20,069 bases of DNA from Mayamaea pseudoterrestris. Its lineage: Eukaryota. The DNA lies in contig BROI01000007.1 in assembly GCA_027923505.1 (NCBI GenBank), positions 1,116,001 through 1,136,069 on the forward strand, in the 5' to 3' direction. The notes under the pieces were generated by a model. The model ran no database searches and was not told where the DNA came from. It saw only the letters and a list, made by a program, of their open reading frames with translations. A program made the position numbers and the translations under genes. How positions within the stretch are numbered: position 1 is the stretch's first letter; each line of letters starts with the position of its first letter. Below are positions 1 through 20,049 of the stretch, in pieces.

Positions 1-3000
1 TGGGATAATCTTTCCGATTCAGAGGAGGAAATTGTTATTGGCGAGGCCGTCATTGAGCGCCCAGAGCTGCTTGTAGGGACCGCTTTTGATGACAGCATTA
101 GCAGAGACACATATTTTGACGAACATCAGTTTGGTTCGATTAATGGATTGCGAGTTGGCTATGGAAATCCTTGGGATGACTTATCCGACAACGAAGGAAC
201 TATGCCTGACGATGTCGCAACATTGGAAGAGTCAACGAAAGGGAAGCTCGGTAGGATGGTATCTGAGGTGCTTGGGGAAGAACTGGCTCCAACGTCCTAT
301 GCTGATGCACGCTCGCTATATGTTGCTGCCGTAAAACGTCTTGCACCTTCGGACATTCAACATGGTCTGAAAGGAGACGCCAAGAAAAATGCCCTACTGC
401 AAGAAGCTCGAAAGAAAGAAGAGTACGCCGTTTTGAAACGAACTTTTGATGCATATGAAATGGTTGCGCGTGATAAACCAATGAATGACAACGTTGGAGA
501 AGCAGAAGTTGCGAGAATTGAAGACCTTGCAGATACGAGCTGGGTAGGCTTTGCCAAGACGGTAATAAAACAAGCGGAAGCTGATGGCGATGCTAGCGAA
601 GAATATCAAGATGAGATTGATAAATGGAAAAGCGAAGCATTGCGAATGAAAGCGCTTGCCCTTGCTCGCAAACGCCGCAAGAAGCGCACAGTCACAAAAC
701 AGGAAGCTGCAATCGCCACAGCTGCTGCTGCTGGTTTCGACGATGGGGAGGATGACTACGATGAGCGAGTTTTTCGTTCGGTGGCCAATTGTCGTCCTGG
801 TATGGCAAGCCCATGGGATGATTTAAGTGATAACGAGGCTAACCTTAATTCTCTGGAACGTGGCAACAATGCTGAAGAGGAGGAAGAACCAGTATATGGC
901 GCAATAAATAGTTATCGCGTTGGAGGTCACAATCCCTGGGACGATTTATCAGATAATGAGGAAGAATCAGCGAAACCATCTGCGCCGCACGAAAAATGCT
1001 CTGATAAGCTCGTAAGTATTCTTGATCAAGTTAATGGCGAAAAAGCTATCACGAGAGATTATCATTCTTTGCGGAGTCGCTATATTCAAGCAGTTCATCA
1101 GTTGGCTCCGTCAAGAATTCCCGCGGGTTCCAGCTTTGCAGGCGCGAAGAATATGCTGTTGACGGAAGCCAAGAAGAAGGAGCAATACGAAACGCTGAAG
1201 AAGCAGTGGGACATTTACGAAATCACTACCAAAGATAAATTAGTAGGCGACATGGACGGCGAGAGAAAGGTCAACAGAGCTGAGGATCTCATCGACACTT
1301 GCTGGGTGGGCTTTGCGAAAACTGTTGTGGCCTGTGCGCAAGGAAGCCAAATGGATGCGGATTCCGAATACAAAGATGAAATTGACAAGTGGAAATCTGA
1401 AGCAAGGCGATTGAAAGCCCAAGCATTAAAAAGGAAACGACGCAAAGGTCGGAAATTCACAAAGAGAGAATCTGAGGAAGCACTTTCAGCCGAAAAAGCG
1501 CAAGACAATAGCAACTATGACGAGGAAATATACGTTCAAGTATGCGCATCAGCGGCCGACAAAAGCTTCGCCAACAATGTCGAGTTTGATCAATATGAGG
1601 ATCAAGTGTATGCGTCGTTAAGTTCGCTTCGACCGGGCATGGGCAACTTCTGGGATGATATTTCTGATTCTGAAGAGGATCCACAATCAAAGAAACTCGC
1701 AGACTTAAAAATAAAAGAAGAAACAAAGTCAACGGAGGCTCTCTCGGCCGTTATATCAACTGTATGTGGCGGTGACAGTGTTGTGAAGAGCTACAGTTCC
1801 GCCCGATCACTTTACGTAAAAGCGTTGCAAAAGCTAGCCCCAGCAAAGCTGCCGAAAGCATCGGTAGGCATTGCAAAAAAGAACTTTCTGATAGAAGAGT
1901 CGAGGAAGAAAGATCTGTATGACAAGCTTACGGAGGCGTTCGATCGATATGAAATTAGTCTTGTCGAGCGACCACGAGATATTGAAGCTGAAAGGAAGTT
2001 GACGCAGGCCGATGACCTAGCCGTGAGGGCATGGGCTGGATTTGCAAAAACAGTAGTCCAATTGGCCGCCAAGGAAGACCACCATGAAGATGACGACTAC
2101 AACGATGAGGTTGCTCGATGGAAGGCAGAAGCCGAGTCATTAAAAGCGAAAGCACTGGCTAGAAAACGTCGGAAGAAAAGAAAAGTCACCAAAGATGAAG
2201 CGGCAGCTGCCGCCGCTGCGTCAGCAGGCTTGAATGACCGTGAGGATTCTCTAGACCAGCAAGTGTATCACCAAGTCAGTCAAATGCAACGCACTGGAGT
2301 TGAAGTCGTTGAGGATGATGCGCTTGCATACGCCGAACAAATATATGGCTCAATCAGTTCATCGCGACCAGGTATGACTAATCCTTGGGATGATCTTTCC
2401 GATGCATCAGAGGAGGAATTCATTTTCGCTAAAGAGAAAACGTTGCGCCCAGATCTAATCGAAGGAACAGTATTTCACGACAGCGACTCGGGCAATGGGC
2501 TGTACGACGAATATCGATACGCATCGACGATTAGCGGTCTTAGGGCTGGGCAAGGTAATCCATGGGATGATCTTTCTGATAACGACGAATTACTGGTCGC
2601 TGAAACTATACAAAGTGAGGAAAAAGCCACGTCGAAGCTTTCCGCGATGATAACAGAGGTGCTTGGTAATTCACTTCCTTTGACTAACTTATCCCGAGCA
2701 CGTACTCGCTACATAGAAGCCGTTAAAAAATTGGCTCCTGCGGAAGTTCCCATCAACATAAAAGGGAAGGGGAAGGCCAAGCTGCTTCGACAAGAAGCCA
2801 TGAAACGAGAAAAGTTCAAAGCAATAAAAGACGCTTTTGACAAGTTCGAAGTATTCGCAATCAAAAAGTCTAACAACGAGAAAGGCGTGGAAACGAACTT
2901 ACAAAAGGTTGAAGATCGTCTTGATAAGGCCTGGTCTGGTTTTGCAAAGTCAGTTGTGAAAGCAGCAGAAGAAAGTGATGATACTGACGAGGAGTACAGG

Positions 3001-3340
3001 GATGAAGTGGATAAGTGGCGTGCAGAAGCCATGCGAATTAAGGCCCAAGCACTCGCACGGAAACGTCGTAAGAGATGCAAAGTCACAAAGAAAGAGACTG
3101 CAGCGGCCACGGCAGCAGCCGCTGGCTATGACGACGGCGAGGACGATGAAGATGATGAGGTCTATCGCTCGATTTCATTGTCCCGTCCAGGAATGCGCAA
3201 TCCATGGGACGAACTCAGCGATGATGAAACCGGACAGAACGAGGAGACACAATCTGAGGCGGAAGAAGAGCCGGTATACGGAGCAATAAACATTTCCAGA
3301 GCTGGTATGCGTAATCCTTGGGACGAATTGTCTGACGACG
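1..3340 (+). repeat. Nine dispersed copies of the short motif (V/I)Y-x-S-I-x3-R-(P/A/V)-G-x-x-N-P-W-D-(D/E)-L-S-D-x-E
   Basis: Trp codons of the motif at 1, 172, 814, 937, 1651 (NFWDDISD), 2386, 2563, 3205 and 3319, all in frame +1. Confidence 0.93.
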
Positions 3341-5307
3341 AAGCCGCGGACACTGCTAACGCCAGCGCCTTCGCGGATCATGGACAAAGCGCAGTTGACG
3401 AGCCTCAACATATACCTGAAAAGTCTTTGACTTTAAAAGAACGGCAGATTAAAGAATTGCTAGTGACGATTCTGACAGATATTGATCAGACGCTGGGCGC
3501 GTTTTCAGATTTTGCTGCATGTCGTTCCAATTATGTAGAAGCACTGCGCAAGCTATCACCGAAAACCATCTCATCATCATTAAAAGGAGAGAAGAAGACG
3601 GAACATCTAAGAAGCCTAGCCGAAAATAAAGCGAAGTACGAAAGTCTTAAAAACGCGTATGATGCTTACGAAGAACTGGCTAACGATAAAAAGGTCGATT
3701 TGCGCGTAAATGATGACATAGCTGCACTTGAAGACCATTTGGATGATTCATGGTTGGACTTTGCCAAAAACGTCGTCAACGGAAGTAAGGACGCCAGTGA
3801 CCATGACTCGGACTACGACGATGAGGTCGATAAATGGCGAGACGAAGCTCGGAGACTTAAAGCCGAGGCTATGAAACGGAAGAAATTGAAGGGACGTCGA
3901 GTATCTCCCGCCGATGCACAAGCCGGCAAAGATGCGCTCGCTGCCGTTTTAACGGACATTCACGGCAAGAATGTCAAGCTTTCAAATGACTATGCGGGAG
4001 CACAAACCCAGTTTATTGCTGCGGCCGAAATAGTCAAACCTGGCGCCTTTTCGGCTGACCTTCCAGTCAACAAGAAGAGAGAGGTTCTGAAGAAGGAAGC
4101 AGCCAAGAAACAAAAGTATGACGATCTCAAGGACGCGTGGGAGGTGTATGGGCATATTGCCGAAAACAGACCGGACTCCGACTCTGCTATCGGGAAGTCA
4201 CTTGAGACCAAAGTGGATAGGGCAGAAGATAAGATAGACGCGCTATGGGGATCGTTCGCTAAGAAAGTCGCCAAGCAGGCTGACTATGGAAGCGACAGTG
4301 AAAGCGACTCCGAATACGATGACGAATTGGATCGTTGGAAGCTTGAAGCGAAAAAACTCAAAGCTGACGCCGAGGCCAAGCGTGAGCGAAGAGCCGAGGA
4401 GGGCAAAGTTGTTCACAAAGATTTCGCTGACGAAAGCGGGGCTGACGAAGCGATAACATCAGTTTCCGAGAAGATACAACAAAAAGAGTCCAAAACAGCA
4501 ATCGAACAAAGCGAGTCTGAGCCGGATTTTGATGATGAGAGCGAAAGCGATGCAGACTCGTCAGATTCTGACAGCGATGGCTCGGAGCAGAAAAAGAAAA
4601 CCAAGAAGAAGGATGAGAAAAAGAAGAAGAAAAGAAAAGACGAGAAGAAGAAGAAGAAAAAGAAGAAAGAAAAGAAAGTTAAGAAAGACAAAATAAAGAA
4701 GAAATTGAAGGAGGATACGCTGGGCGAGACTCGCAACATGGACGGTACTCTGTGGAAGAATCCACTTCGCTTCTGGAAAAACAAGGCCAAGGTCGAAATC
4801 GAGGGCGCGGCGATCATAATGAGAGTGCCAGGTAGAACGGACTTTTGGCGCAAGACAGGCGGTGCATCGGTTGCCGATTCGGGCGCCTTCTACTGGCACA
4901 AGATCACTGGTAACTTTGAGCTGATCGTCAAGATTGCTTCCACCATGAGTAGTGATATGGACAAGGCTGGACTTATGATTCGCCTTGATGAATCTAATTA
5001 CATCATGACCGGTATGGAGGCGTTCGCGGGGCGAGTATACAACTCATCACTTGTAGCGATTGACGCGACAGATCAATCGCTCTGTCTTCTACCAAAAGGT
5101 GCTGAAAAGCAGGGTATCTGGTTTTGTTTCAAGCGCTATCACAACTCGTATGAGTGCTTCTACTCGTACGATGCCTTGGTGTGGTTTCAGACGCGTCAAG
5201 GAGTATTCACAGACCGACCAGTCCTTAGTGTCGGTATTGCTGCCGCTTGCCCCTCCGGCAACACATTCAAGGCTAATTTTGAATACTATCGGGTCAAAGC
5301 TGTATAG
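1..5307 (+). CDS. Giant repeat protein (5'-partial, >1768 aa): six helical repeat modules, nine (N)PWDDLSD motifs, acidic/Lys-rich block, C-terminal DUF1349 (Ree1-like concanavalin A-fold) domain
   Basis: Frame +1 is open from base 1 (tgg gat aat ctt tcc gat = WDNLSD...) to TAG at 5305-5307, so the TTG 'start' at 148 in the ORF track is internal. The last ~185 aa (4750-5304) carry DUF1349-type motifs: TDFWRKT, FY...TGNF, DKAGLMIRLDE, VGIAAACP.G..F.A.F. Confidence 0.9.
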   Translation, partial: WDNLSDSEEEIVIGEAVIERPELLVGTAFDDSISRDTYFDEHQFGSINGLRVGYGNPWDDLSDNEGTMPDDVATLEESTKGKLGRMVSEVLGEELAPTSYADARSLYVAAVKRLAPSDIQHGLKGDAKKNALLQEARKKEEYAVLKRTFDAYEMVARDKPMNDNVGEAEVARIEDLADTSWVGFAKTVIKQAEADGDASEEYQDEIDKWKSEALRMKALALARKRRKKRTVTKQEAAIATAAAAGFDDGEDDYDERVFRSVANCRPGMASPWDDLSDNEANLNSLERGNNAEEEEEPVYGAINSYRVGGHNPWDDLSDNEEESAKPSAPHEKCSDKLVSILDQVNGEKAITRDYHSLRSRYIQAVHQLAPSRIPAGSSFAGAKNMLLTEAKKKEQYETLKKQWDIYEITTKDKLVGDMDGERKVNRAEDLIDTCWVGFAKTVVACAQGSQMDADSEYKDEIDKWKSEARRLKAQALKRKRRKGRKFTKRESEEALSAEKAQDNSNYDEEIYVQVCASAADKSFANNVEFDQYEDQVYASLSSLRPGMGNFWDDISDSEEDPQSKKLADLKIKEETKSTEALSAVISTVCGGDSVVKSYSSARSLYVKALQKLAPAKLPKASVGIAKKNFLIEESRKKDLYDKLTEAFDRYEISLVERPRDIEAERKLTQADDLAVRAWAGFAKTVVQLAAKEDHHEDDDYNDEVARWKAEAESLKAKALARKRRKKRKVTKDEAAAAAAASAGLNDREDSLDQQVYHQVSQMQRTGVEVVEDDALAYAEQIYGSISSSRPGMTNPWDDLSDASEEEFIFAKEKTLRPDLIEGTVFHDSDSGNGLYDEYRYASTISGLRAGQGNPWDDLSDNDELLVAETIQSEEKATSKLSAMITEVLGNSLPLTNLSRARTRYIEAVKKLAPAEVPINIKGKGKAKLLRQEAMKREKFKAIKDAFDKFEVFAIKKSNNEKGVETNLQKVEDRLDKAWSGFAKSVVKAAEESDDTDEEYRDEVDKWRAEAMRIKAQALARKRRKRCKVTKKETAAATAAAAGYDDGEDDEDDEVYRSISLSRPGMRNPWDELSDDETGQNEETQSEAEEEPVYGAINISRAGMRNPWDELSDDEAADTANASAFADHGQSAVDEPQHIPEKSLTLKERQIKELLVTILTDIDQTLGAFSDFAACRSNYVEALRKLSPKTISSSLKGEKKTEHLRSLAENKAKYESLKNAYDAYEELANDKKVDLRVNDDIAALEDHLDDSWLDFAKNVVNGSKDASDHDSDYDDEVDKWRDEARRLKAEAMKRKKLKGRRVSPADAQAGKDALAAVLTDIHGKNVKLSNDYAGAQTQFIAAAEIVKPGAFSADLPVNKKREVLKKEAAKKQKYDDLKDAWEVYGHIAENRPDSDSAIGKSLETKVDRAEDKIDALWGSFAKKVAKQADYGSDSESDSEYDDELDRWKLEAKKLKADAEAKRERRAEEGKVVHKDFADESGADEAITSVSEKIQQKESKTAIEQSESEPDFDDESESDADSSDSDSDGSEQKKKTKKKDEKKKKKRKDEKKKKKKKKEKKVKKDKIKKKLKEDTLGETRNMDGTLWKNPLRFWKNKAKVEIEGAAIIMRVPGRTDFWRKTGGASVADSGAFYWHKITGNFELIVKIASTMSSDMDKAGLMIRLDESNYIMTGMEAFAGRVYNSSLVAIDATDQSLCLLPKGAEKQGIWFCFKRYHNSYECFYSYDALVWFQTRQGVFTDRPVLSVGIAAACPSGNTFKANFEYYRVKAV
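244..4390 (+). repeat. Six tandem ~150-160 aa helical modules within gene 1 (approx. 244-705, 1006-1470, 1738-2200, 2635-3097, 3448-3915, 3934-4390)
   Basis: Shared consensus L...Y..AR..Y..A...LAP...K...L..EA.KK..Y..LK..(F/W/Y)D.YE...ED..D..W.GFAK.VV..A...EY.DE(V/I)DKWK.EA..LKA.AL.RKRRK. The W of W-x-x-FAK lies at 541, 1303, 2032, 2932, 3751 and 4246. Confidence 0.92.
4510..4712 (+). repeat. Low-complexity acidic Ser/Asp/Glu block followed by a poly-Lys block (purine-rich AAG/AAA tract)
   Basis: SESEPDFDDESESDADSSDSDSDGSEQ then KKKTKKKDEKKKKKRKDEKKKKKKKKEKKVKKDKIKKKLKE. Confidence 0.9.
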
Positions 5308-5627
5308 TTAAGCATAATGAGACACAGTCTTTCGCACTTCTAAGCATTGCTTTTGTAGTACGAAACATGCATGCTGCGCATAGATTGCCAAAATGTCGTT
5401 ATCGTTCGTCGTGGCTTTGCTAAAGGCGAAGCAATACTACTGATATATGCACACACGTCGGCTAAGAACTATATTTTGTAATTGAGCAGTGGATATGCAG
5501 ACTATTGTTAATACAAGCAACATTTACTACAAAAAAACGCAGAGAGTTGTCCAAGCAATTCGCTACCAAGCACCAACGCGCCTGTTGCGCGCGTTGGAAA
5601 TTAGCTCCAACCTCGATATAGAGATGG

Positions 5628-6218
5628 TCAAATGTTAATCTCTCTGTACTGATCAAAAGTGCATTTAAACTCCTTGCCCATGGGACAAGCAGCCGCAATG
5701 CCAACGTTCAGCACGGGTCGTTCCGTAAATATACATTCGCGAGTCTTGATCCATTCCTTTCCATCCACCGAGTACGAGCACGTGACTAGATTCTTGTACC
5801 GCCGAACGCATATCCAAACACCCTCCTGTTCAGCTCCGCCAGGCAGCAAGCTCAATGTCCAGTCAGTAAAGTCCTTGGTCACCGACGTGGAGTGGTGGCA
5901 ACGATCCTGGTAGTGCTCCAATCCTGACAAGATCCACTGCTCCTCATCGAGTCGAACCATGATTCCAGCCTTGTCGTAGTTGCTTTTGAATTCGGCGGAT
6001 ATTTTGGTGTACACTTCAAAGTCTCCAGTGACTTTATGCCAGTAAAAGGGTGCATTGTCAAGTATAAAGTTGCCACGAGTCTTTCGCCAATAGTCTGTCT
6101 TTTCGGGGACCTTGAAGACAATGGAAGTATCCTTCTCAATCACCTTTTTCACTGGTTTGTTTCGCCAAAACTTGAGTGGATTCTTCCAGTTATTAGCCAA
6201 GGCAGGGAGTTCGGGCAT
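5628..6218 (-). CDS. Stand-alone DUF1349 / Ree1-like concanavalin A-fold protein (196 aa)
   Basis: ATG-to-stop ORF with DUF1349 motifs TDYWRKT, DNAPFY, TGDFEV, YDKAGIMVRLDEEQW, TDWT, YSVDGKEW and VGIAAACP. Co-linear with the C-terminus of gene 1. Confidence 0.88.
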   Translation of the reverse strand: MPELPALANNWKNPLKFWRNKPVKKVIEKDTSIVFKVPEKTDYWRKTRGNFILDNAPFYWHKVTGDFEVYTKISAEFKSNYDKAGIMVRLDEEQWILSGLEHYQDRCHHSTSVTKDFTDWTLSLLPGGAEQEGVWICVRRYKNLVTCSYSVDGKEWIKTRECIFTERPVLNVGIAAACPMGKEFKCTFDQYREINI

Positions 6219-6628: not shown

Positions 6629-8323
6629 ATGAATTTTAGCAGGAAAAAGCTCCAAGGCTTGATTGTGGTGCTTTTGTTTACATCCTTCGTCGCTGTGTAC
6701 TTGTCAAACCGCTCGGTTTTAGAATTCTATTCAACAGAGTTGCAAGAGTTACAAGTCTTGCTCTCCGTTCAGCTAGAAATCAAAACCAGCAAGAGCAACG
6801 CTTTGCAAATCAACAAAAGTAGACGCTACCTTCACAAGAGTGCACTTTGTCCAGCATGTCGAAATGCTTCTACAGGAGAAAATCGCTTCCCGACTTGCGA
6901 AAGTTTAGTCAGCCGATATCAATTCCTTACTGCCCCGAACAACGAGACCGAATTGGATGCTTTCTATACTGTCATGTTAAACAACAAGCAGTGCAAAATT
7001 GCTTGCAATGTTTCATGCGCTGACTCTGAGCGCACCCGAGTACTCTGGCGCATGGACGACATTGCACCTCCCGAGGTGAGTGGTCGCACCTTTTACCTGC
7101 AATCGGTTCCCGACAAGCATAGGATACCGAGAACAGCACTCTCAGACTTGGATTCCTACTTTTCAAAAGCGGAAAACTTGCATCCTCAGCGAGAATACTT
7201 TTTTGAATACAATCCAAGCATTTTAAAAATACCCGACGGCTACAAGCTGCCCGAGTCATTGACGGAGAAACCAGTCTATCTCGCGTCCTTTCGCCTCACG
7301 ACAATCCAAATGTGCGTAATGGGAACCAAAAACATGTACAATGGATCAGCATGGCCACCCGAAGGCAAAGCGCTAGGACTTGCGTTGCTGCGGGCAGACT
7401 TTAGTATCATTGCCGATGTTGCAATCGACGTGAAAGCCATTGACAAGTCTGTGCAAGACTATCGGATTTTTGAGTTTGACAACCAACTGTACTTGTCCTC
7501 GCATTATTTGATGTGGCCGTTTTGGCTAGAAACTTTCAATGGAACGGGGCATTACGGCGCTGTCAAGCTAAAGCACAAGTTTGACATCGCAAATGAACAA
7601 CAGCACCCGTTTGATGTTTACATTCGTCAAGCAGCTTCCTGCGCGCGCTACAGCAAGGGACGAAATGGGAAGAACTTGAACTTTTTCAAAGACTTGGAGA
7701 CAAATGAGATAATGATGGAGCTGCTTCCCATGGGTCCGAAAATGCGCATTGACTTGAACAAGTCATGCGATTGGAATGGCGAACCCCAGGAGCCGGACAC
7801 GGAACCTCCTTCTGTTTCCGAAGCTACCTTTCGGACCATGGAAGAGCTTCACTACGGCACTTCCAGTCTCTTCTGGAATGATCGAGGTAGTGCTTGCTGT
7901 GTGTCAATAGCAGATCCTCGCAACGTTACTGGTCCGCCGCTGCTCCTTGGCATTGCCCATGGGAAGACGCTGAAAGGACCTTATAATGGCTTTGCGCATC
8001 AGTATACGTCAAGTTTTTACGCCATGGAATCTGTTCGTCCGTACGGTGTTGTTGCGAAAACTGGTCGATTTTGCCTTGGTTTTCCTTCCGAGCATGAAGA
8101 AGACAACCCATACGCGCGGCTAAACATGAGAACTCTTTTCGTTGGTGAGTCTGTTAATTGTCCTCGCATTCACTTTGTGAGTGGAATGCTAGAAAAGGCG
8201 GATGACCCATCAATACTGGTAATTGGCTATGGCGTTAACGATTGTGCTCCACGGATCGTCCAAGTAGAGAAAGAGTATGTCATACGACTCTTGTTTCCTA
8301 CCGACGAGATGGAGTTGAAGTAG
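6629..8323 (+). CDS. Type II membrane protein (564 aa) with Cys-rich stem and probable five-bladed beta-propeller glycan-active domain (GH130-like / beta-mannosyltransferase-like)
   Basis: Basic N-terminus plus hydrophobic anchor (RKKLQGLIVVLLFTSFVAVYL) and Cys cluster (CPAC...TCE...CKIACNVSC). Then the motif series YNPSI, YLASFR, DYRIF, KNLNFF, RGSACC, LLGIAH, FYAM..PY.VV, IHFVSGM, LVIGYGVNDC, which resembles propeller glycosidase/transferase blades. The gene is secure; the family call is from pattern recall only. Confidence 0.6.
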   Translation: MNFSRKKLQGLIVVLLFTSFVAVYLSNRSVLEFYSTELQELQVLLSVQLEIKTSKSNALQINKSRRYLHKSALCPACRNASTGENRFPTCESLVSRYQFLTAPNNETELDAFYTVMLNNKQCKIACNVSCADSERTRVLWRMDDIAPPEVSGRTFYLQSVPDKHRIPRTALSDLDSYFSKAENLHPQREYFFEYNPSILKIPDGYKLPESLTEKPVYLASFRLTTIQMCVMGTKNMYNGSAWPPEGKALGLALLRADFSIIADVAIDVKAIDKSVQDYRIFEFDNQLYLSSHYLMWPFWLETFNGTGHYGAVKLKHKFDIANEQQHPFDVYIRQAASCARYSKGRNGKNLNFFKDLETNEIMMELLPMGPKMRIDLNKSCDWNGEPQEPDTEPPSVSEATFRTMEELHYGTSSLFWNDRGSACCVSIADPRNVTGPPLLLGIAHGKTLKGPYNGFAHQYTSSFYAMESVRPYGVVAKTGRFCLGFPSEHEEDNPYARLNMRTLFVGESVNCPRIHFVSGMLEKADDPSILVIGYGVNDCAPRIVQVEKEYVIRLLFPTDEMELK

Positions 8324-8621: not shown

Positions 8622-9981
8622 TCAACGTCGAAACTGGCCGTTCCGCACCGCTCGGTCTAGAGCAAATCGCAAGCTCCTCCAAAGGGGCAACCACAGAAAC
8701 GGTGTATAGCAATAATGGACGCAGTCATTCGTCGGATGCATGTCGAGAAGCGGTAACGTATACTGCCGAAACGGAATCAAAATCAGTTCGTGTCGCTCAG
8801 GATTCGTTGGAGTGGTGTGAAAACTAGGGTCACTTGCGTCAAGAATGGTCGCGTTCATGCTCCGCACGAGCTGCTCCGTGCGATCAAGAAAGTACGAAGT
8901 GTTGTGGTACTCTGACTCGTTGATGGGGTGACAAAGCGGTCCATCTCCAAGTTTTTTGTCGTAATGACCCCCAGGCGTTTGAAAATGCGTTGTAATAGTT
9001 TCCTTCCAGATCACAAGTGGTACCTTTTGAAATAAATATTCCAGTGTCGATTGTAGTTGTTCTTGAAAGATGTGCATTTCATTTGCAACATGATAATGCA
9101 AGCCATGGTTGAGCAATACAATATCCGCCGGATACATTGCCAGAAGGTTATCATAGATGGCAGCGTCAGCTCGATACACATTCATAAAGCGGATAGTCGT
9201 CTGCAACTGGCCATGAGAGACAATCATATGATGTGTGGTCTGCCAGAAACTTAGCGGCCCTTTATACTCTCTCTGTTCGCGAAAGGATGAAACGTTGTAC
9301 CCTCGCCTTCGTAAATTACACTCCCATCCGGTGGCTACTTGACGCAAAATCGAATCGCCGACAAAAGCTAGGGTGAGATTATGTCGCAGCAGCAGGTGAA
9401 CTATCTGACATGAATCACATTTTCGCAAAGTGTTTGATGGAAGTGGGTGCTGCTTAAGCCACTCGATTGAAACGTTTTGAGTACGTTCATAAGGAAGACG
9501 CTGGAATGTAGCGGCAAAAATATGTTAGTCGCTATTGCTTGAGCAAGTGTACGCGCAAGTTGCAAGGAAAGCATTTTACCATGGTTTCCGGTGCATTGAG
9601 ACACCACTTAGAATCCCATTTGACATCGAAAATGCGGGAGGAACTGCCGAGGCAGCAATAGTTTGGCGCACCGCCAGGGGGCGCGCAAGTTCTAACTAGC
9701 CCCACGCCACTATCTAGTTCCCACTCTTGCAGTGGCAAGTATTCCAAGTGAGGTGAAAAGGAGCTGCTTTCGTCGTGAGTCAGAGGATCGTTAGCAACGT
9801 CATGGTGTTTTTCGAAAAGGAAGAAATGGTTTATTATTGGTTCCATCGGGCCTTCACTGGCGGAACGCATACGCCGAAGCTGAGTTATACAATAGATCAA
9901 CAATACTATGCTAGCAGGGATCCTGTATCTGCGGACAGTGCTGTATTTCTTATCCTTAGAGGCAGGCGACATGGCCCACAT
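8622..9981 (-). CDS. SGNH-fold PC-esterase / trichome-birefringence-like (TBL) putative polysaccharide O-acyltransferase/esterase; two exons, join(9981..9580, 9500..8622), ~426 aa
   Basis: Exon 1 encodes an N-terminal membrane anchor (RRYRIPASIVLLIYCITQL). Exon 2 encodes FVGDSILRQ (GDS at 9351-9359), LLNHGLHY, IWKET...HF...GG and DCVHYC (DxxH at 8715-8726). Splicing out 9501-9579 joins the two ORF-track fragments in frame (...APETM|RLPYERTQ...TLRKCDSC). The start may be 9981 or 9972. Confidence 0.82.
9501..9579 (-). other. 79-bp spliceosomal intron, phase 0
   Basis: Minus strand: donor ATG|GTAAAA at 9579, branch point GACTAAC at ~9530-9524, acceptor TACATTCCAG| ending at 9501. Removal restores the reading frame. 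Confidence 0.85.
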
Positions 9982-10188: not shown

Positions 10189-11712
10189 ATGAAGCCAGTG
10201 TTTCAGTATGTTGTACTTCTTCTGTTTATACTTATACAAATTGCATCTGCAGGTATTCCAAGAAAAGCCAGTTATTTTCCTCAGCTCGTCGACCATGATG
10301 ACGAGAACGACCATCGCCTTTGGTCACTTTGGTCGCAGCGATTCTATTCGCTCGGCGAACATTTTAAAGGACCCGGCTCGCCCATTTTCCTAATACTTGG
10401 AGGAGAGGGAGCCATTGAACCTTCGACTGGTATATTATATCCATTCATTGCCAATGATCTAGCCGTGAGTTTCAATGCCTTTATTCTCCAACCGGAGCAC
10501 CGCTTCTATGGCGAATCACAACCAATCAGCAAGGAGGAAATCACTAGAGCTCGAGCAAATGGACTACCGGATCCTCGCATCAAACTACTAAGTCCAGATC
10601 AAGCCATTCGCGATGCCTTGCGTCTTTTACAATTCGTCAGCAATCGCCTCGGATGCAGTAGTGACCGCTTTTCGTCAAAATATTGTCCTGTCATTGCGGT
10701 TGGTGGCTCGTATCCAGCCTTTTTGGCCGCCATGGCTCGGACTGCCTATCCTCACATGGTTGACATGGCATATGCGGCATCGCCACCAATGAAGTTTTAC
10801 GCGCAGACGATTGAAACGGGTGACGAATACTACGAGCACATTACGGAACAAACCGAACAGGCGTTTCCCGGATGCGCGCAAGCGGTACAAACGACACTGC
10901 AAGGCGCCGTCGAACGACTGGTTGAGCTACAAACTTTGGACGAAACGTTGTTTGGTGCTTGCGGCAATACCCTTCCGGCTTATATAAACAGCACGCAAAC
11001 CCTTGTCGACGAAATTGTCATGATGGTAGGATACACCTTTGCCAATTTCAACATGGCTTACTATCCACCATCCAACAAGACCCAAATGGCGCATTCTTGC
11101 CAAACGTTCATGAACGAGCAAGTAACTGACCCGCTGTCTCGACTCGAGAACTTTTTTCGGTACGCCTTTACCAAAAACAACAACGCCACTTGCTTTGACA
11201 TGTCACAGCAACTACCGACGGGCGAATACGCAACGATATCGGCGGGCGACTGGAGCGGCGTGGGAGCCGGATCATCGGGCGAATCGTGGGACTTTCAGAC
11301 GTGTACCAGATGCGTCGAACGGATCAACATGGCGGGCTTTTTGCCGAAACGCAACTGGTCAATGGATTGGCTGAATGAGCATTGTCAGCGACGATTCAAT
11401 GTACATCCAACTCCCTATGAGCTTGTTGAGAAATGGCATTTTGATGATTTGGTGGCTGCTGGTGCTAGCCACATTTTGTTCACGAATGGTCTTGTTGATG
11501 GTTGGTCAGTGGCGGGGATCAAAAGCAATCTCTCAGATACGCAAGTGGCTATCAATTTCGAAAATGGAGCTCATCACAGCGATTTATCTTACTACAAAGG
11601 CTTGCATGATGATGCCACGGACGATGTTAAGCAAGGACGCACTCGTATACGCGCCCTTTTGGCTCAGTGGCTGCACGAGCTGCCTGGTGGATCGGTTGTT
11701 TACAAGAATTGA
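10189..11712 (+). CDS. Peptidase family S28 serine carboxypeptidase (lysosomal Pro-X carboxypeptidase-like), secreted, 507 aa
   Basis: Signal peptide (MKPVFQYVVLLLFILIQIASA). S28 motifs F.Q.VDH, PIFLILGGEG, EHRFYGES, nucleophile GGSYPA (10702-10719), WDFQTC, ILFTNGLVDGWS (Asp) and GAHHSDL (His). Confidence 0.93.
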   Translation: MKPVFQYVVLLLFILIQIASAGIPRKASYFPQLVDHDDENDHRLWSLWSQRFYSLGEHFKGPGSPIFLILGGEGAIEPSTGILYPFIANDLAVSFNAFILQPEHRFYGESQPISKEEITRARANGLPDPRIKLLSPDQAIRDALRLLQFVSNRLGCSSDRFSSKYCPVIAVGGSYPAFLAAMARTAYPHMVDMAYAASPPMKFYAQTIETGDEYYEHITEQTEQAFPGCAQAVQTTLQGAVERLVELQTLDETLFGACGNTLPAYINSTQTLVDEIVMMVGYTFANFNMAYYPPSNKTQMAHSCQTFMNEQVTDPLSRLENFFRYAFTKNNNATCFDMSQQLPTGEYATISAGDWSGVGAGSSGESWDFQTCTRCVERINMAGFLPKRNWSMDWLNEHCQRRFNVHPTPYELVEKWHFDDLVAAGASHILFTNGLVDGWSVAGIKSNLSDTQVAINFENGAHHSDLSYYKGLHDDATDDVKQGRTRIRALLAQWLHELPGGSVVYKN

Positions 11713-12011: not shown

Positions 12012-13691
12012 ATGAGGAATATACAGCTGATAGTCACGTCATGTTCAATGCTCTTAACTGCTGGAGCATTACAACAGGAAGCTGTTCTCTATACGGTCGA
12101 AAGCTTCCTTGCTGGCAAGGGCAGCAAGAGTGGTGCACAAGCTGTCGCGTGGCTTCGAAATTTGTTGCCACCAACAAGGACGGACGAAGATGCTACAAAT
12201 TCCGTGACCCATCATCTTTACGATGTTTCCGCCTTTCAATCCATTCATGACCGGCAAGCGAGAAGAGGCATTTTGGACCGCTTCAAGACTAGCACAACCA
12301 GAGGAGGTTCTTCGGTGCTCGACGACGAAGACCAGAGTAGCACTAATTCCATTCTCGCACCAACGTCGCACAAGAAGCCATACTCTATCACGACGACACT
12401 TGTACATGGATCTGGCGAGACGAGTCTGATAGCCGGATGTGACATAATTGAGGCCAAGCAAACGACGCGACTCATTGCTCTTTGGGACGACAATACGCCG
12501 GCGCTGTGGAAAACCTGCGCGTTCCTGAGTGACACCTTAATCGTCGGATTGATCGAGCGAACGACCATCTCTCCATTGCTGACGCAGGCATTGCAAGCGG
12601 GGCTAGTAGCGCGCAAGGCCCAAAAACTATCCAAGCCACGCTTGGTGTTTGCGCTGCATTCAGACCCGAACTCAAAGGATGAATTGAACGAGTGGAAGGA
12701 ACAGCTTGTTATAAATGAATTATCTGGAATATCTGAACGACTCGTTGATAGCTTTCAGGTCATGGCGGTCGACGACCTGCGGACTCAAAAGCCGAAATCT
12801 CGCAGAGGCGGTGTTTCAAAGGTTGCCGAGCCAGAAGCGTTTCCTCGGCTGATGGAACAAGTACACAGCTCGTTTGGCGGCTTTGATGAATCACTGCTCA
12901 AATTGACGGAGAAGAGAGAGATACAGGAACCATTGCAAGAATTCTCAGCCACACCGGTGGAAGGGAAAGCTCCTGCACCTAAACAAACAGAGGCAGTTGC
13001 GGCTGTAGAGACTTACCTCGATGCGACATCCATTCTCGAAACTGCATTGCAGCATCTTGAATTGCTTCAGGAGCAGCAAGACAATGCCTCTTTGGAAGCC
13101 CAGGCTGGCGCCATGCCTATGGACTTTGCGTCAAAGACAGCGCCGATACTCGAACTAATTGCATCAAACATGAGCGAGCTTCCCGTGGAGGAGCAGGCCG
13201 TCCTTCAGCAGCAAATTGGAGTACACATTCAGCAACTATACCAGCAGCAACTATCATCGCTGCGAGACTATTATGGTCGCTTGTACGAAGCAATGTTGGA
13301 CAAGACTGACAATGAAAAGGAATGGAAAAGCAGTGTCAACAAGGTGCTGGACCAGTTTCGCAAAGCAGCGGCTGCCGCTGTTCCTGCAAATGTCAAGGCG
13401 TTTGGAGAACTTGATTTGCAGTATTTGAGTAGCTGCGCTGCTACGGGACTTCGTGACGATATGGTGCAAGCAATGGAACTTCGCCAAACCCTGGAGTTGG
13501 AGAGTGACGACGATGAAGGGACTGGAGTCAGCGGCGAGCCGAAGAAAACGTTACCAATGTGGTACAAGAAGCTCGCCGCGCGCGGCTTGGTTTTGGGTAT
13601 AAATTATTTTCAAGGTTGGCTAGCGTGGCAGGGAATCAAGCGTGCAGCGCTGCAAAGAGAAAGGAATTTGCCCAAATTTCCCTTGTTTTAG
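12012..13691 (+). CDS. Hypothetical protein (559 aa) with possible N-terminal signal peptide, helical C-terminal half and hydrophobic/amphipathic C-terminal segment
   Basis: Long uninterrupted ATG-TAG ORF with natural composition. C-terminus WYKKLAARGLVLGINYFQGWLAWQGIKRAALQRERNLPKFPLF. No family confidently recognised. Confidence 0.8.
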   Translation: MRNIQLIVTSCSMLLTAGALQQEAVLYTVESFLAGKGSKSGAQAVAWLRNLLPPTRTDEDATNSVTHHLYDVSAFQSIHDRQARRGILDRFKTSTTRGGSSVLDDEDQSSTNSILAPTSHKKPYSITTTLVHGSGETSLIAGCDIIEAKQTTRLIALWDDNTPALWKTCAFLSDTLIVGLIERTTISPLLTQALQAGLVARKAQKLSKPRLVFALHSDPNSKDELNEWKEQLVINELSGISERLVDSFQVMAVDDLRTQKPKSRRGGVSKVAEPEAFPRLMEQVHSSFGGFDESLLKLTEKREIQEPLQEFSATPVEGKAPAPKQTEAVAAVETYLDATSILETALQHLELLQEQQDNASLEAQAGAMPMDFASKTAPILELIASNMSELPVEEQAVLQQQIGVHIQQLYQQQLSSLRDYYGRLYEAMLDKTDNEKEWKSSVNKVLDQFRKAAAAAVPANVKAFGELDLQYLSSCAATGLRDDMVQAMELRQTLELESDDDEGTGVSGEPKKTLPMWYKKLAARGLVLGINYFQGWLAWQGIKRAALQRERNLPKFPLF

Positions 13692-13966
13692 AATGTATGG
13701 TTTTGTCGGACTGCACAGCGCCACAAACAAAACTCTTAAGCATTATTCATATAGTAAGTGTCAAATGATGCTGCATTTATGCGTGTGTAGAGTACAGGAT
13801 GAGCTCGCGGCATAGACTTGCACGATAGGTAGCGGTAATGTGAAGCGGTGCGACAACCACAAATGTGGCCAACGACAATGAGCGACTGAGCGATCAGAAA
13901 TTGACGTGAAGGCTATCACACAGCTTTTGATTCAAATACGAGAGCTCGACGGCGCATATATTAAGC

Positions 13967-15043
13967 ATGGCCGAAGACATTAGCGCTTCATTGAGTGAGG
14001 AAAATCCTCGACCTGCGAAGAATACTAAATTTACGGCGCCGCAAAACGTTAGCCATGGTCCGACCATCACGACAGCAACAACGGCAGCTGCATCGCGCAA
14101 CGGCGGAGACCCAGACATGACGCAAACATCAAAACAGTCACGTAATGGAAAGTTACGACGCCCAAAGCATCTAAATAGGGCAATAGATCCTAACATTCTC
14201 CGTGGGAGCTACACGATCGAGAATGATCCCTTTCCCACCATTCTACGATGTCGGGCGCACCAGCATGGCTGGATACCTTCGATACTTGATTGGAATTTTG
14301 AATGCCCGCGCTACACTACCGAGCAAGAGAATGCGCTTCGTCAACTACTGCTTGTGAACGAGAAGAAGGAACGCGGCATGATGCTTCGTCAGCCTGCCGA
14401 ACGCTTGACAGACATTATGCAAGCCTGTGAAACGCACAATGTTTCTCTCCATGCTGCCCTTTCTCTCCGACGACACTGTATAAAATGGAACCATCCCAAA
14501 ATACCATTGAAAGCTCTTGGACTTGGTGATGAAGCAAAGATTCGTGAGAGCGCAGAGCGATTTGAAAGGGCCGTTGGCAACTTTTTGGTCCAGCAAAACG
14601 TACGATATTTTAGCGAACGGGAGCAGAGTCGCGTCAATCGCAACTGCCGACCATACCCTCCAACTCCTGACTTTATATTGCACTATCCGGTGACGCTGCG
14701 GCGAGTATGTCATGGCGACGGCAGCTGTAGTAAGGACGATGTTGAAGTGACGCATATAATTCATTGGATGGAAGCAAAAATGTACTACGGCGCCAATACA
14801 GTACCTTGCGACGACGCAAGGTCCGCCAATGGAACCATTCTGCCGACTGCGGAAAAATATGTTCGTGTCTTTGGTCCGGGCGCGATGGTATTCATGCATG
14901 GTTGCGGGCGAGACTTGGCCAATCAACTCTTGGAATTTGGGGTGGTTGCGTTGGATGGATCGACGGGTAATTTGGACTTGGAACGAGTGCATGCGCATCA
15001 ACGAACATGGTGTGCCAATAAAGATGGTTTGATTTTGCCGTGA
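13967..15043 (+). CDS. CDIN1: CDAN1-interacting nuclease 1 (C15orf41)-like TPD-motif PD-(D/E)xK nuclease, 358 aa
   Basis: FERAVGNFL...V.YFSEREQ...TPDFIL.YPV (TPD at 14663)...IIHWMEAKMYYG (EAK at 14771)...KYVRVFGPGAMVFMHG matches the CDIN1 pattern TPDFIL..PV....IHWIESKASFG...Y.NRFGPGLVIYWYG. Confidence 0.8.
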   Translation: MAEDISASLSEENPRPAKNTKFTAPQNVSHGPTITTATTAAASRNGGDPDMTQTSKQSRNGKLRRPKHLNRAIDPNILRGSYTIENDPFPTILRCRAHQHGWIPSILDWNFECPRYTTEQENALRQLLLVNEKKERGMMLRQPAERLTDIMQACETHNVSLHAALSLRRHCIKWNHPKIPLKALGLGDEAKIRESAERFERAVGNFLVQQNVRYFSEREQSRVNRNCRPYPPTPDFILHYPVTLRRVCHGDGSCSKDDVEVTHIIHWMEAKMYYGANTVPCDDARSANGTILPTAEKYVRVFGPGAMVFMHGCGRDLANQLLEFGVVALDGSTGNLDLERVHAHQRTWCANKDGLILP

Positions 15044-15151: not shown

Positions 15152-15751
15152 TTACGCCCTCGGCTGCTTTTGCAAGTCTTCCATTCCCTTTCTGATCATT
15201 TCCTTCACTGCCTCATCGCCATCGGCAGCAAACGGATCCTTCATTGGATTCGGCTCAAAGTCAACATTCGGCTCGCCGACCAACTCCCACATTCTAACCT
15301 TTAAATACGTATCAAGCGCCACCATTTCATCCCTCGCCATGTCAATGAGCTCCTCCACTTGTCCCATATTGACGGCGTCCTCCACCGCCTCTGGATCGTT
15401 TGGATGCGCCTTGGCTTGCGCCAAGCAAAAGTTGCACCACTTGGTGACATCGATACGGTACTGCGCCGTCTCCGGCATGTCGGATGCCTCCATTTTATCC
15501 AATAGCGCTTGAAACTCCTGGTGCATGACGTTGTACCAGTTTGGCTCCACGGCGAGTCCAACGTAACCCGTCGCGGTTTTGCCCTTACCAACGCCTGGAG
15601 TAAAGGGCTTTTCGGATGCAGCAGCGGGAGCAATGGAGAAGGAGCGCAGCAATGGTCTTGCAGCGGCTGATGGTGCTCGATGCATCAAGCGATTGCCGCG
15701 TGACGCTAGCGCGCGTGCGGAAGCTCGAAGGGCGGCGGCAGGTAGCGTCAT
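15152..15751 (-). CDS. NDUFA5: NADH:ubiquinone oxidoreductase (complex I) accessory subunit NDUFA5/B13, with mitochondrial presequence
   Basis: Arg/Ala/Ser-rich acid-free N-terminus. KTATGYVGLAVEP, MPETAQYR, VEDAVNMGQVEELIDMARDEM and MWE match the NDUFA5 family. Confidence 0.92.
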   Translation of the reverse strand: MTLPAAALRASARALASRGNRLMHRAPSAAARPLLRSFSIAPAAASEKPFTPGVGKGKTATGYVGLAVEPNWYNVMHQEFQALLDKMEASDMPETAQYRIDVTKWCNFCLAQAKAHPNDPEAVEDAVNMGQVEELIDMARDEMVALDTYLKVRMWELVGEPNVDFEPNPMKDPFAADGDEAVKEMIRKGMEDLQKQPRA

Positions 15752-16155
15752 GGTGGATGAGGCGCGATTGTGTGCGCTGCGGAGGATTTTGCGTCGTCAG
15801 GGCCAGTCACGTTTGACGTTTCACTCATGACTCATCTTTGCGTTTCAACGGACGCAGTCATGCAGTTGAATGGCATCAAGAAGGAACAAACGGAGTCCCC
15901 TTCGTCGTTAGTGGCTTGAACGAGCCATTGGATTACCGTTTCATTGTGTGAGGGAAGAAGATTTGCAAGGAACGGTGGTGCTAATAGACACGATCTGATT
16001 TATTTTTCATCGATAGGAGCGTTGACGGCCTCGACAGGTTTTTCGCTTGCGCAGGGTCGGCACGAGCTCGCATCGCCAGTCAAGAATCTCATCCATTCGT
16101 CCGTAGCATTCATTGATTACCCTTCAGCAGTAACGTAGCAACGTGAAATACCGCA

Positions 16156-19689: not shown

Positions 19690-20049
19690 ATGCGTCACTT
19701 GGCAGTGTACTTGATGCTCCAACTAGGAGGCAATGACTCTCCTTCCAAGGAGGATATTACCAAAGCACTTTCGGCCGTTGGTGTCGAGTCCGACTCGGAC
19801 AGCCTGGACAAGCTCATGGCAGGACTAGACGGCAAATCCGTCCAAGAACTCATGGAAGCAGGAAAGGAGCTTCTTGCCACCTTTGGAGGCGGTGGTGGCG
19901 GAGGCGGCGCGGCTGCTGCGGGTGGTGGTGACGCTGCCCCGTCTGCCGCCGCCAAGGAGGAAGAAAAGGAGGAGGAAGTGGAAATGGACCTTGCTGGAGG
20001 TATGGACATGTTCGGAGGTGAAAGTGGCGGCGGCGGAGGTGATTATTAG
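19690..20049 (+). CDS. RPLP2: 60S acidic ribosomal protein P2
   Basis: MRHLAVYLMLQLGGNDSPSKEDITKALSAVGVE...LDGKSVQELMEAGKELLA is a typical P2 N-domain, followed by a Gly/Ala hinge and acidic KEEEKEEE. Confidence 0.95.
   Translation: MRHLAVYLMLQLGGNDSPSKEDITKALSAVGVESDSDSLDKLMAGLDGKSVQELMEAGKELLATFGGGGGGGGAAAAGGGDAAPSAAAKEEEKEEEVEMDLAGGMDMFGGESGGGGGDY

What the first reader, a model, noticed from the sequence alone, without database searches (positions are those of the whole stretch)
1..6218. Candidate undescribed two-gene system: giant modular scaffold tipped with DUF1349, tail-to-tail with a free DUF1349 twin
Seen: gene 1 ends in a DUF1349 domain, and 320 bp downstream on the opposite strand is a stand-alone DUF1349 protein that aligns end to end. 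Matching segments (fused/free) are WKNPLRFWKNK/WKNPLKFWRNK, TDFWRKT/TDYWRKT, FYWHKITGNFE/FYWHKVTGDFE, DKAGLMIRLDE/DKAGIMVRLDE, LLPKGAEKQGIW/LLPGGAEQEGVW and FTDRPVLSVGIAAACP/FTERPVLNVGIAAACP. Both share an unusual WKNPL.FW.NK leader. Known: DUF1349/Ree1 proteins are normally small single-domain ConA-fold proteins of unknown function. Inference: an old local inverted duplication in which one copy became fused to a >1500-aa repeat scaffold. Both frames remain intact despite heavy divergence, which suggests a maintained pair, for example a heterodimer through the lectin-fold domains, or a tethered and a soluble binder of the same ligand.
Basis: partly seen in the sequence, partly recalled or inferred. 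Interest (0 to 1): 0.78.

Follow-up and report, generated by a model that had tools for sequence, protein, structure and literature searches.

The report
Diatom giant scaffold with spun-off ends
A diatom gene encodes a 2,671-residue protein with nine copies of an uncatalogued helical domain ending in a sugar-binding-type fold. Both ends also exist as small stand-alone genes, which points to an undescribed modular docking family in pennate diatoms whose function is untested.

Summary
The + strand gene is 2,671 aa and starts 2.7 kb before the window. It has a conserved leader, nine ~150-aa helical domains (H; no Pfam or PDB match) and a C-terminal DUF1349. A free DUF1349 gene lies tail-to-tail 320 bp away (51% identical).

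Leader–H–linker–DUF1349 is a widespread diatom-type architecture: 21 of 22 long relatives carry H, 19 of them once. The fusion is therefore old; this lineage amplified H and released the ends as satellites (free DUF1349 next door, leader+H on contig C15). The cited shared motifs are family-wide.

The pairing is probably conserved. Seminavis robusta has two adjacent DUF1349 genes followed by Peptidase S28, as here, and a relative's two proteins share one contig length. One syntenic relative lacks the twin. All listed variants in both DUF copies are synonymous (10/10, 8/8). Sisterhood is the best tree but unresolved (70/95; AU p=0.14). H is also fused to cyclases and ARM repeats.

Best reading: an intracellular multivalent docking scaffold whose tethered lectin-fold copy has drifted while the free copy keeps the canonical residues. 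Heterodimer untested. The scan noted this ORF once before, from the neighbouring window.

The parts
1..5307 (+). 3' two thirds (aa 904-2671) of a 2,671-aa ORF. The ATG lies 2,709 nt upstream of the window (G000:C7:1113292). The leader (aa ~8-85), H1 (110-272), H2 (449-600) and H3 (693-840) lie outside the window.
   Evidence: one 8,172-nt contig of run X3 bridges almost the whole CDS with no joint or gap listed
232..687 (+). helical domain H4 (aa 981-1132); five-helix model, pLDDT 86
994..1452 (+). helical domain H5 (aa 1235-1387)
1726..2181 (+). helical domain H6 (aa 1479-1630)
2623..3078 (+). helical domain H7 (aa 1778-1929)
3445..3897 (+). helical domain H8 (aa 2052-2202)
3922..4398 (+). 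helical domain H9 (aa 2211-2369)
1..3336 (+). nine linker motifs of the type [YF]xx[IL]SxxR[PAV]GxxNPWD[DEN][LI]SD (PWD at aa 903, 960, 1174, 1215, 1453, 1698, 1757, 1971, 2009); related to the LRPGMMRGxSFDD repeats in the linkers of single-H relatives
4510..4710 (+). Ser/Asp/Glu tract followed by a Lys-rich tract just before DUF1349; a similar tract precedes the domain in many, not all, relatives
4738..5307 (+). fused DUF1349 (ConA-like) domain; differs from the family consensus at 9 of 37 pan-conserved positions (including N>S2530, Y>M2556, W>Y2570, T>A2589, W>Q2595)
5308..5627 (.). 320-bp convergent intergenic spacer
5628..6218 (-). free DUF1349 gene, 196 aa, no hydrophobic leader; differs at 4 of the same 37 positions and keeps N55, Y81, W95, T114, W120
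10192..11712 (+). Peptidase S28 gene; synteny anchor shared with the S. robusta DUF1349 pair (not part of the system)
15152..15754 (-). NDUFA5 gene; synteny anchor shared with locus L008, which has the single-H fused gene and no free twin (not part of the system)

Best explanation
The large gene is an amplified member of an undescribed diatom protein family built as leader - H domain - low-complexity linker - DUF1349. In this lineage H was multiplied (3, 5-6 and 9 copies in three relatives), and both ends were duplicated into small stand-alone genes. DUF1349 was copied next door in inverted orientation, and leader+H1 was copied to contig C15. Most likely mechanism: the giant is an intracellular, multivalent docking scaffold. 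Its H domains and Trp-acidic linker motifs bind a repeated partner or polymer (best guess: the cortical cytoskeleton), and DUF1349 is a ConA-fold ligand-binding tip. After duplication the labour was divided: the free copy kept the canonical Trp/Tyr/Asn/Thr residues and the ancestral ligand binding, while the tethered copy changed specificity or became a docking surface. The two genes work in one pathway without having to touch. Shown: architecture, family, copy-number variation, satellites, purifying selection. Likely: linkage in relatives, direction of duplication. Inferred only: location, ligand, partner, division of labour.
For: Family: 21 of 22 diatom-type long DUF1349 proteins carry H, 19 once; the 23rd hit was a distant 24%-identical multidomain protein. 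H tree: all H copies of the giant, P0133 and P0051, plus the stand-alone leader+H proteins (C15 gene, P0053, P0054), form one clade at 99/95. The stand-alone ones group with H1 at 100/98. Separate doublings occurred in P0044 (98/93) and P0052 (100/94). The C15 gene is 318 aa, 44% identical to aa 9-309 of the giant, with a stop after H. H as a portable module: among the 44 new representatives it is joined to DUF1349 in 9, a nucleotide-cyclase domain in 3 and ARM repeats in 3. No signal or transmembrane stretch (highest 19-residue hydropathy 1.4). Selection: 10 of 10 and 8 of 8 listed variants in the fused and free DUF are synonymous, against ~0.22 expected by chance. In S. robusta piN/piS is 0.039 and 0 for the adjacent pair. 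Linkage: S. robusta Sro155_g070310 and g070320 (both DUF1349) are followed by g070330 Peptidase S28; this genome has 4 S28 matches. P0133 (giant type) and P0008 (free type) both have a longest contig of 15,774 bases (expected chance ties 0.0005). Drift: five residues kept in bacteria, diatoms and the free copy are changed in the giant. Other much-enlarged fused members (P0042, P0061, P0066, P0041) also carry 5-7 such changes, while free sisters of the P0042/P0061 group carry 0-2.
Against: No ligand, partner, location or expression was measured. The excess of lost conserved residues is not significant (9 vs 4 of 37, Fisher p=0.22), and relative-rate tests with 9 outgroups were all non-significant (p 0.09-1.0). 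One free protein (P0026) is equally degenerate (9 changes). Sisterhood of the two DUF copies has only 62/89 and 70/95 support, and an alternative placement is not rejected (AU p=0.139). The shared rare residues (5) are no more than with unrelated rows (up to 10). The S. robusta genes were seen only as table rows: size, strand and sequence are unknown. The contig-length link is indirect and may concern the same lineage as S. robusta. The cytoskeleton guess rests on a recalled resemblance of the leader to actin-binding helices, and Pfam gave no match. Some 'free' relatives may be truncated gene calls.
Confidence: 0.45

Rival explanations
1. Passive neighbours: the free gene arose by local duplication and stays beside its parent only because gene order in this block is slow to break. 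The two proteins now work independently.
For: Unrelated genes also stay linked to this locus: Peptidase S28 in S. robusta and NDUFA5 in L008. Free DUF1349 forms arise in several diatom clades. The genes are convergent, so they share no promoter. L008 lacks the twin.
Against: The same lineage also released the other end of the protein. Erosion of the fused copy goes with enlargement and a free sister in more than one clade (post hoc).
Confidence: 0.27
2. One reading: an obligate pair in which free and fused DUF1349 form a heterodimer (or the free domain docks on the H repeats), so that the giant recruits the small protein.
For: The pair is probably linked in relatives. Both copies are under purifying selection. 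The fused copy keeps its fold residues while losing aromatic ones, as a docking pseudo-lectin would. The solved relative 3MEP has three chains in its entry, though that need not be a biological oligomer.
Against: Most family members have a fused DUF1349, and one syntenic locus has no free twin. H also occurs in proteins without any DUF1349, which points to a third partner.
Confidence: 0.17
3. Nuclear or nucleolar regulator: the Lys/Arg clusters closing H2-H7 and the Ser/Asp plus poly-Lys tract target the protein to the nucleus, where DUF1349 senses a metabolite, like the gene-regulatory role recalled for yeast Ree1.
For: Basic clusters such as RKRRKKR and the poly-Lys tract. Weak compositional PDB hits of the family profile include nuclear proteins (E 0.02-0.4).
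Against: Those hits are low-complexity matches. The yeast homologue is reported as cytosolic (PMC3045335 passage). The basic clusters continue the last helix of H. Some relatives have little Lys before the domain.
Confidence: 0.1
4. Artefact: two genes that happen to be in frame, or a mis-assembly joining a repeat gene to a DUF1349 gene.
For: A Met (window 4738) precedes the DUF1349 domain, and a simple-repeat tract lies at the junction.
Against: Contigs of four runs each bridge the junction. The same junction and order occur in 21 relatives, including a named transcriptome protein family (P0048 cluster, Entomoneis).
Confidence: 0.02

Closest known systems
DUF1349 / Ree1 family (PF07081; yeast YJL217W, PDB 3O12; Pectobacterium ECA2234, PDB 3MEP)
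   Same: Both domains pass the Pfam cut-off. The free-protein model matches 3O12 (TM 0.83-0.88, E 2e-16) and 3MEP (Z 26, rmsd 2.0 over 179 residues).
   Different: The diatom-type domains form their own clade against the bacterial-type rows (100/100). They have a WKNPL leader and YDKAG for YDQAG, and are often fused behind a leader, an H domain and a long linker; here nine H domains. No function is established for the family (PMC3045335 passage).
C-terminal ConA-like domain of GH43 beta-xylosidases (PF17851); CBM66
   Same: Next-best folds (Z 20.1, rmsd 2.5 over 174; CBM66 Z 14.8); weak Pfam hit of 23.3 bits for the free copy. A preprint passage calls DUF1349 a lectin/glycosidase fold found fused to GH43.
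   Different: No GH43 catalytic domain in either gene; 11-17% identity. A shared fold shows no ligand.
Seminavis robusta DUF1349 genes (Sro155_g070310/g070320; Sro6_g004920; Sro324_g117470) in the source data of PMC7335047
   Same: An adjacent DUF1349 pair followed by Peptidase S28, both core genes with low piN/piS. Two other DUF1349 genes have homologues in 4-6 pennate and 0 centric, 2-3 benthic and 0 planktonic species.
   Different: Listed only as table rows; the passages and the section part I read do not discuss them. Sequences not seen. The Sro155 pair did not appear among the signature genes shown.
Helical-bundle repeat scaffolds (spectrin repeats, syntaxin Habc)
   Same: Beads-on-a-string all-alpha domains; best structural rows are syntaxin (Z 9.2, rmsd 3.3, 132 aligned) and spectrin (Z 8.7, rmsd 2.4, 95 aligned).
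   Different: These Z values are in the range common to any helical bundle; 4-6% identity; no Foldseek match with E<=0.001; no Pfam family shared by two repeats; repeats are separated by 10-175-aa linkers.

Membership tests
DUF1349 (PF07081) | score above the Pfam gathering cut-off over the whole model | tested here: met
   114-120 bits (fused) and 167 bits (free) vs 32.4; model positions 1-177 and 1-174 of 179
DUF1349 (PF07081) | ConA-like beta-sandwich as in 3O12/3MEP | tested here: met
   free copy: pLDDT 90, all-beta; Foldseek TM 0.83, VIA Z 26; fused copy not modelled, 51% identical
DUF1349 (PF07081) | conserved Trp/Tyr/Asp/Glu/Asn set intact | tested here: inconclusive
   free keeps 33 of 37, fused 28 of 37; difference not significant
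DUF1349 (PF07081) | small single-domain protein (usual, not strict) | tested here: not met
   not met by the 2,671-aa protein, met by the 196-aa one
DUF1349 (PF07081) | carbohydrate or other ligand binding | not testable with these tools
   no assay; family function unknown
GH43 glycoside hydrolase | catalytic GH43 domain | tested here: not met
   no such Pfam hit in either protein at E<=0.1 (this scan covered aa 904-2671 of the giant, the rest being H domains and linkers)
Spectrin-repeat / syntaxin-Habc helical bundles | fold and sequence signature | tested here: inconclusive
   Z 8.7-9.2, not above unrelated helical rows; no Pfam or Foldseek support
Secreted diatom adhesive or cell-wall proteins | N-terminal signal peptide or membrane anchor | tested here: not met
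   hydropathy scan only: highest 9-residue mean in the first 40 aa is 0.7 or less; highest 19-residue mean is 1.4
EPLIN/Xin-like actin-binding leader (recalled resemblance) | sequence match to a described actin-binding segment | tested here: inconclusive
   leader motif is conserved (35 of 67 proteins vs 0.07 in shuffles; pattern derived from these same proteins), but there is no meaningful Pfam match; actin binding not testable
Obligate two-gene system | both genes present and linked wherever one occurs | tested here: not met
   linked here, probably in S. robusta and in one contig pair; absent from syntenic L008; none of the 5 diatom-like loci L008-L012 holds two copies, but four of them are only 1-3 kb
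Obligate two-gene system | physical interaction or co-regulation | not testable with these tools

The most novel reading that the evidence does not exclude
H is an undescribed pennate-diatom targeting module that brings lectin-fold domains, nucleotide cyclases and ARM proteins to one cortical or cytoskeletal site. This locus is a three-gene rheostat: a nine-valent scaffold, a free leader+H competitor and a free DUF1349 ligand-binder. Benthic lineages have built it repeatedly by amplifying H and spinning off the ends, and it may serve surface life (adhesion, gliding control or cell shape).
Probability: 0.22. Interest if true: 0.78.

Novelty: new variant of a known kind. Interest (0 to 1): 0.52.

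Why it matters
It defines a new ~150-aa domain with no Pfam, NCBIfam or clear PDB match. All named carriers are pennate diatoms, and it is shared by DUF1349, cyclase and ARM proteins, so it is a handle on lineage-specific signalling or cell architecture in benthic diatoms. It also gives a natural paired experiment for DUF1349, a family with solved structures but no function: two copies under selection, one with the conserved aromatic set intact and one with it altered. The probable S. robusta orthologues make both questions testable in a model with an expression atlas.

Tried and rejected
Expression: no RNA holder was listed (4 runs, one study, kind not on record). Runs X2-X4 begin ~185 nt before the ATG, end near the stop and leave part of the spacer uncovered, while X1 runs through. 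This looks like RNA but is not counted as evidence.

Searches for H that found nothing usable: Foldseek, ESM Atlas (for P0030 only DUF1349 clusters), Pfam, NCBIfam, PDB sequences. These blanks do not show a new fold. A word-based search for other giants of 1,469-4,675 aa returned only the query; it missed P0051, so it is weak.

The metagenome scan gave 53 loci, only 5 diatom-like. The contigs behind P0133/P0008 and P0051/P0025 could not be fetched. P0051 (5-6 H, ends in what looks like intron read-through) and P0025 (a DUF1349 exon, sister to the free clade at 99/88) share a 156,296-base length, but this may be one gene or two. A tie at 3,255 bases between different sources (P0053/P0018) was treated as chance (0.3 ties expected overall).

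Faster evolution of the fused copy was tested and is not significant. An Atg8-interacting (WxxL) reading of PWDDL and a kinase-site reading of MMRGxSF are recalled resemblances only. A raphe-gliding-specific role was weakened: two S. robusta DUF1349 genes each have homologues in 2 araphid species.

Literature: DUF1349+diatom gave 2 papers; DUF1349 gave 12, 11 listed. Searches gave none; one search gave one irrelevant abstract book; one search gave 2 listings, not read; some searches gave listings from which I opened the papers named in the report. None of the listings or passages described this fusion. Supplements of PMC8027222, PMC7296067 and PMC12618581 had no hit for the S. robusta genes. 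The PMC7335047 source file was cut and its main supplementary PDF was unreadable, so unseen parts may bear on novelty and expression.

Tree rows dropped: L008, L009, P0050, L003 and most bacterial-type loci, additionally L014, four more outgroups and P0012, P0035, P0038, P0049.
Full report
1. Observation. The window begins inside a + strand frame that is open to 5307. The own-genome search placed the window at G000:C7:1116001-1136069 in a 30.6-Mb, 41-contig genome and gave an open frame of 2,672 codons. Upstream DNA shows an ATG 2,709 nt before the window and a 2,671-aa protein. A 196-aa gene lies on the - strand at 5628-6218, 320 bp from the first stop. Both carry DUF1349 above cut-off and are 51% identical end to end. 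The genome has a third, distant DUF1349 on C3 (29%). Contigs of four public runs each bridge the repeat-to-DUF1349 junction, and one 8,172-nt contig covers nearly the whole CDS without a listed joint or gap. The runs come from one study and their kind is not on record.

2. Anatomy of the giant. There are nine copies of a ~150-aa domain (H), 25-51% identical to each other. AlphaFold2 on the nine-copy alignment gave five helices at pLDDT 86, pTM 0.77. Foldseek found nothing at E<=0.001. The wide structural search gave syntaxin (Z 9.2) and spectrin (Z 8.7), within the range common for helical bundles. No Pfam family matched more than one repeat, and NCBIfam gave none. The linkers hold nine PWD[DEN][LI]SD motifs preceded by RPG-like segments. 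An N-terminal leader (GIKARLLAYQ) is conserved in 35 of 67 family proteins (0.07 in shuffles; the pattern was derived from these proteins). An acidic and then Lys-rich tract precedes DUF1349. There is no signal or membrane stretch by hydropathy.

3. The fusion is a family, not a one-off. A search for longer relatives of the fused domain gave 23 proteins. Of these, 22 are diatom-type (552-1,776 aa) and 21 of those carry H: 19 once, one twice, one three times. A profile search of 1.84 billion representatives gave 56 H-bearing proteins. Among the 44 not seen before, Pfam finds DUF1349 in 9, a nucleotide-cyclase domain in 3 and ARM repeats in 3; 27 have no family and 2 have only incidental hits. 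One of the 44 (P0086) showed no H domain on rescoring. The few named members are pennate diatoms: Entomoneis twice, Amphora, and one name cut at 'Amphip'; most have no name. The fused copy is no closer to its neighbour than to other fused domains.

4. History. In two DUF1349 trees the diatom-type domains are one clade (100/100). The giant groups with P0028/P0133 (100/100), and the free copy with free orthologues of 72-83% identity (100/97-98). The two groups join in the best tree at 62/89 and 70/95. An alternative placement of the giant, chosen after seeing the tree, is not rejected (AU p=0.139). In the H tree all copies from the giant, P0133 and P0051 form one clade (99/95) that includes stand-alone leader+H proteins; other lineages doubled H separately. 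One stand-alone gene is in this genome: G000:C15, 318 aa, one GT-AG intron, 44% identical to the giant's first 309 aa. Inference: the fused form is ancestral, and this lineage amplified the middle and released both ends.

5. Linkage. For: the source data of PMC7335047 list S. robusta Sro155_g070310 and g070320, both DUF1349 and core with piN/piS 0.039 and 0, followed by Peptidase S28. Here S28 is the fourth long ORF after the pair, one of 4 matches in the genome. Sizes and strands were not visible. P0133 (giant type) and P0008 (free type) each have a longest contig of 15,774 bases, and P0051 and P0025 share 156,296 (expected chance ties for these pairs 0.0005). These contigs could not be read, and the second pair may be one gene. 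Against: L008 holds a single-H fused gene with NDUFA5 2 kb downstream (71% identical to the window's), and no free twin. The persistence of S28 and NDUFA5 also shows that neighbours here stay linked without a shared function.

6. Selection and residues. One search listed 26 variant places: 1 upstream, 17 in the giant and 8 in the covered part of the free gene. All 10 in the fused DUF1349 and all 8 in the free gene are synonymous (chance fraction ~0.22); elsewhere in the giant 4 of 7 are. At 37 positions conserved in diatom-type and bacterial-type rows, the giant differs at 9, its orthologue at 5 and the free copy at 4. The giant's changes include Asn, Tyr, Thr and two Trp that the free copy keeps. 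This is suggestive but not significant (p=0.22), and relative-rate tests are negative. The free model matches 3O12 and 3MEP, then GH43 C-terminal domains and CBM66. That these residues line a ligand groove is my inference from the fold.

7. Mechanism. I favour an intracellular multivalent docking scaffold with a ligand-binding tip, and a division of labour between the tethered and free tips (0.45). H as the docking unit follows from its copy-number plasticity, its stand-alone form and its reuse in cyclase and ARM proteins. The cytoskeleton as target is a guess from a recalled likeness of the leader to actin-binding helices; it comes from no call and Pfam did not support it. Two other S. robusta DUF1349 genes have homologues in 4-6 pennate, 0 centric, 2-3 benthic and 0 planktonic species, but also in 2 araphids each. 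That fits surface life more than raphe gliding; I did not see their sequences. Rivals: passive neighbours (0.27), heterodimer (0.17; complex prediction unavailable), nuclear regulator (0.10), artefact (0.02).

8. Papers seen. PMC7335047: passages, part 1 of 2 of one section, and parts of the source-data file. PMC3045335: three passages, giving YJL217W as ConA-like, cytosolic and of unknown family function. bioRxiv 10.64898/2026.10.27.762293: one passage. PMC8027222, PMC7296067, PMC12618581: supplement searches only, no hits. All others: search listings. Ten searches showed no description of the H domain or the fusion; the library lacks most subscription journals. The regulatory role of yeast Ree1 is recalled, not read.

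9. Verdict. The feature is real and maintained by selection. It is an amplified member of an undescribed diatom family, with satellites of both ends. It is a new variant of a known kind (DUF1349) that carries an uncatalogued domain. An obligate two-gene system is not shown. Interest 0.52. This scan's notes held no look-alike on other DNA; one first-reader note saw the same ORF from the neighbouring window.

Noticed in passing
L067:4359-5391 (G000:C15:405859-406891, +): Stand-alone leader+H gene, 318 aa, one 79-nt intron, paralogue of the giant's N-terminus; similar short forms are P0053 and P0054.
   Followed up: yes
P0062, P0087, P0088 (and by eye P0068); P0073, P0074, P0093: H domain at the N-terminus of soluble adenylate/guanylate cyclases (one named Amphora) and of ARM-repeat proteins; the two groups are neighbours in the H tree (90/79).
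   Followed up: partly
P0058, P0064, P0070, P0072, P0076, P0077, P0085: H-domain proteins that end, in place of DUF1349, in a shared C-terminal segment containing LLPWNATG; no Pfam match.
   Followed up: no
P0042, P0061, P0078, P0081: Very long linkers in which a short Trp-containing helix motif like the last helix of H seems to be repeated on its own (4-12 matched stretches).
   Followed up: no
L003:1252-2280 (G000:C3): Third DUF1349 of this genome, of the YDQAG/WLKTG type, 29% identical, with an internal insertion.
   Followed up: partly
L014:590-2310 and L015: Two very divergent DUF1349 genes in tandem on one strand in a metagenome contig outside the diatom-type clade.
   Followed up: no
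window 6632-8323 (+), 12012-13691 (+), 16159-17961 (+): Three ORFs of 560-600 aa with no Pfam match at E<=0.1.
   Followed up: no
window 13964-15043 (+); 8622-9524 (-); 18147-19307 (-); 19690-20049 (+): TPD-motif protein (PF14811), weak PC-esterase-like protein, RRM protein and 60S acidic ribosomal protein.
   Followed up: no
L005:8983-9238 and 9721-9925: Listed variants are far denser in the two DUF1349 regions (18 in about 0.9 kb) than in the repeat region (7 in 7.4 kb); could be haplotype structure or an assembly effect.
   Followed up: no
giant aa 365-380 (upstream of the window); P0133 aa 344-360; P0051 aa 794-810: A second, internal copy of a leader-like motif (SIAEKAKMF / SVKERLKVF) in all three multi-H proteins.
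   Followed up: partly
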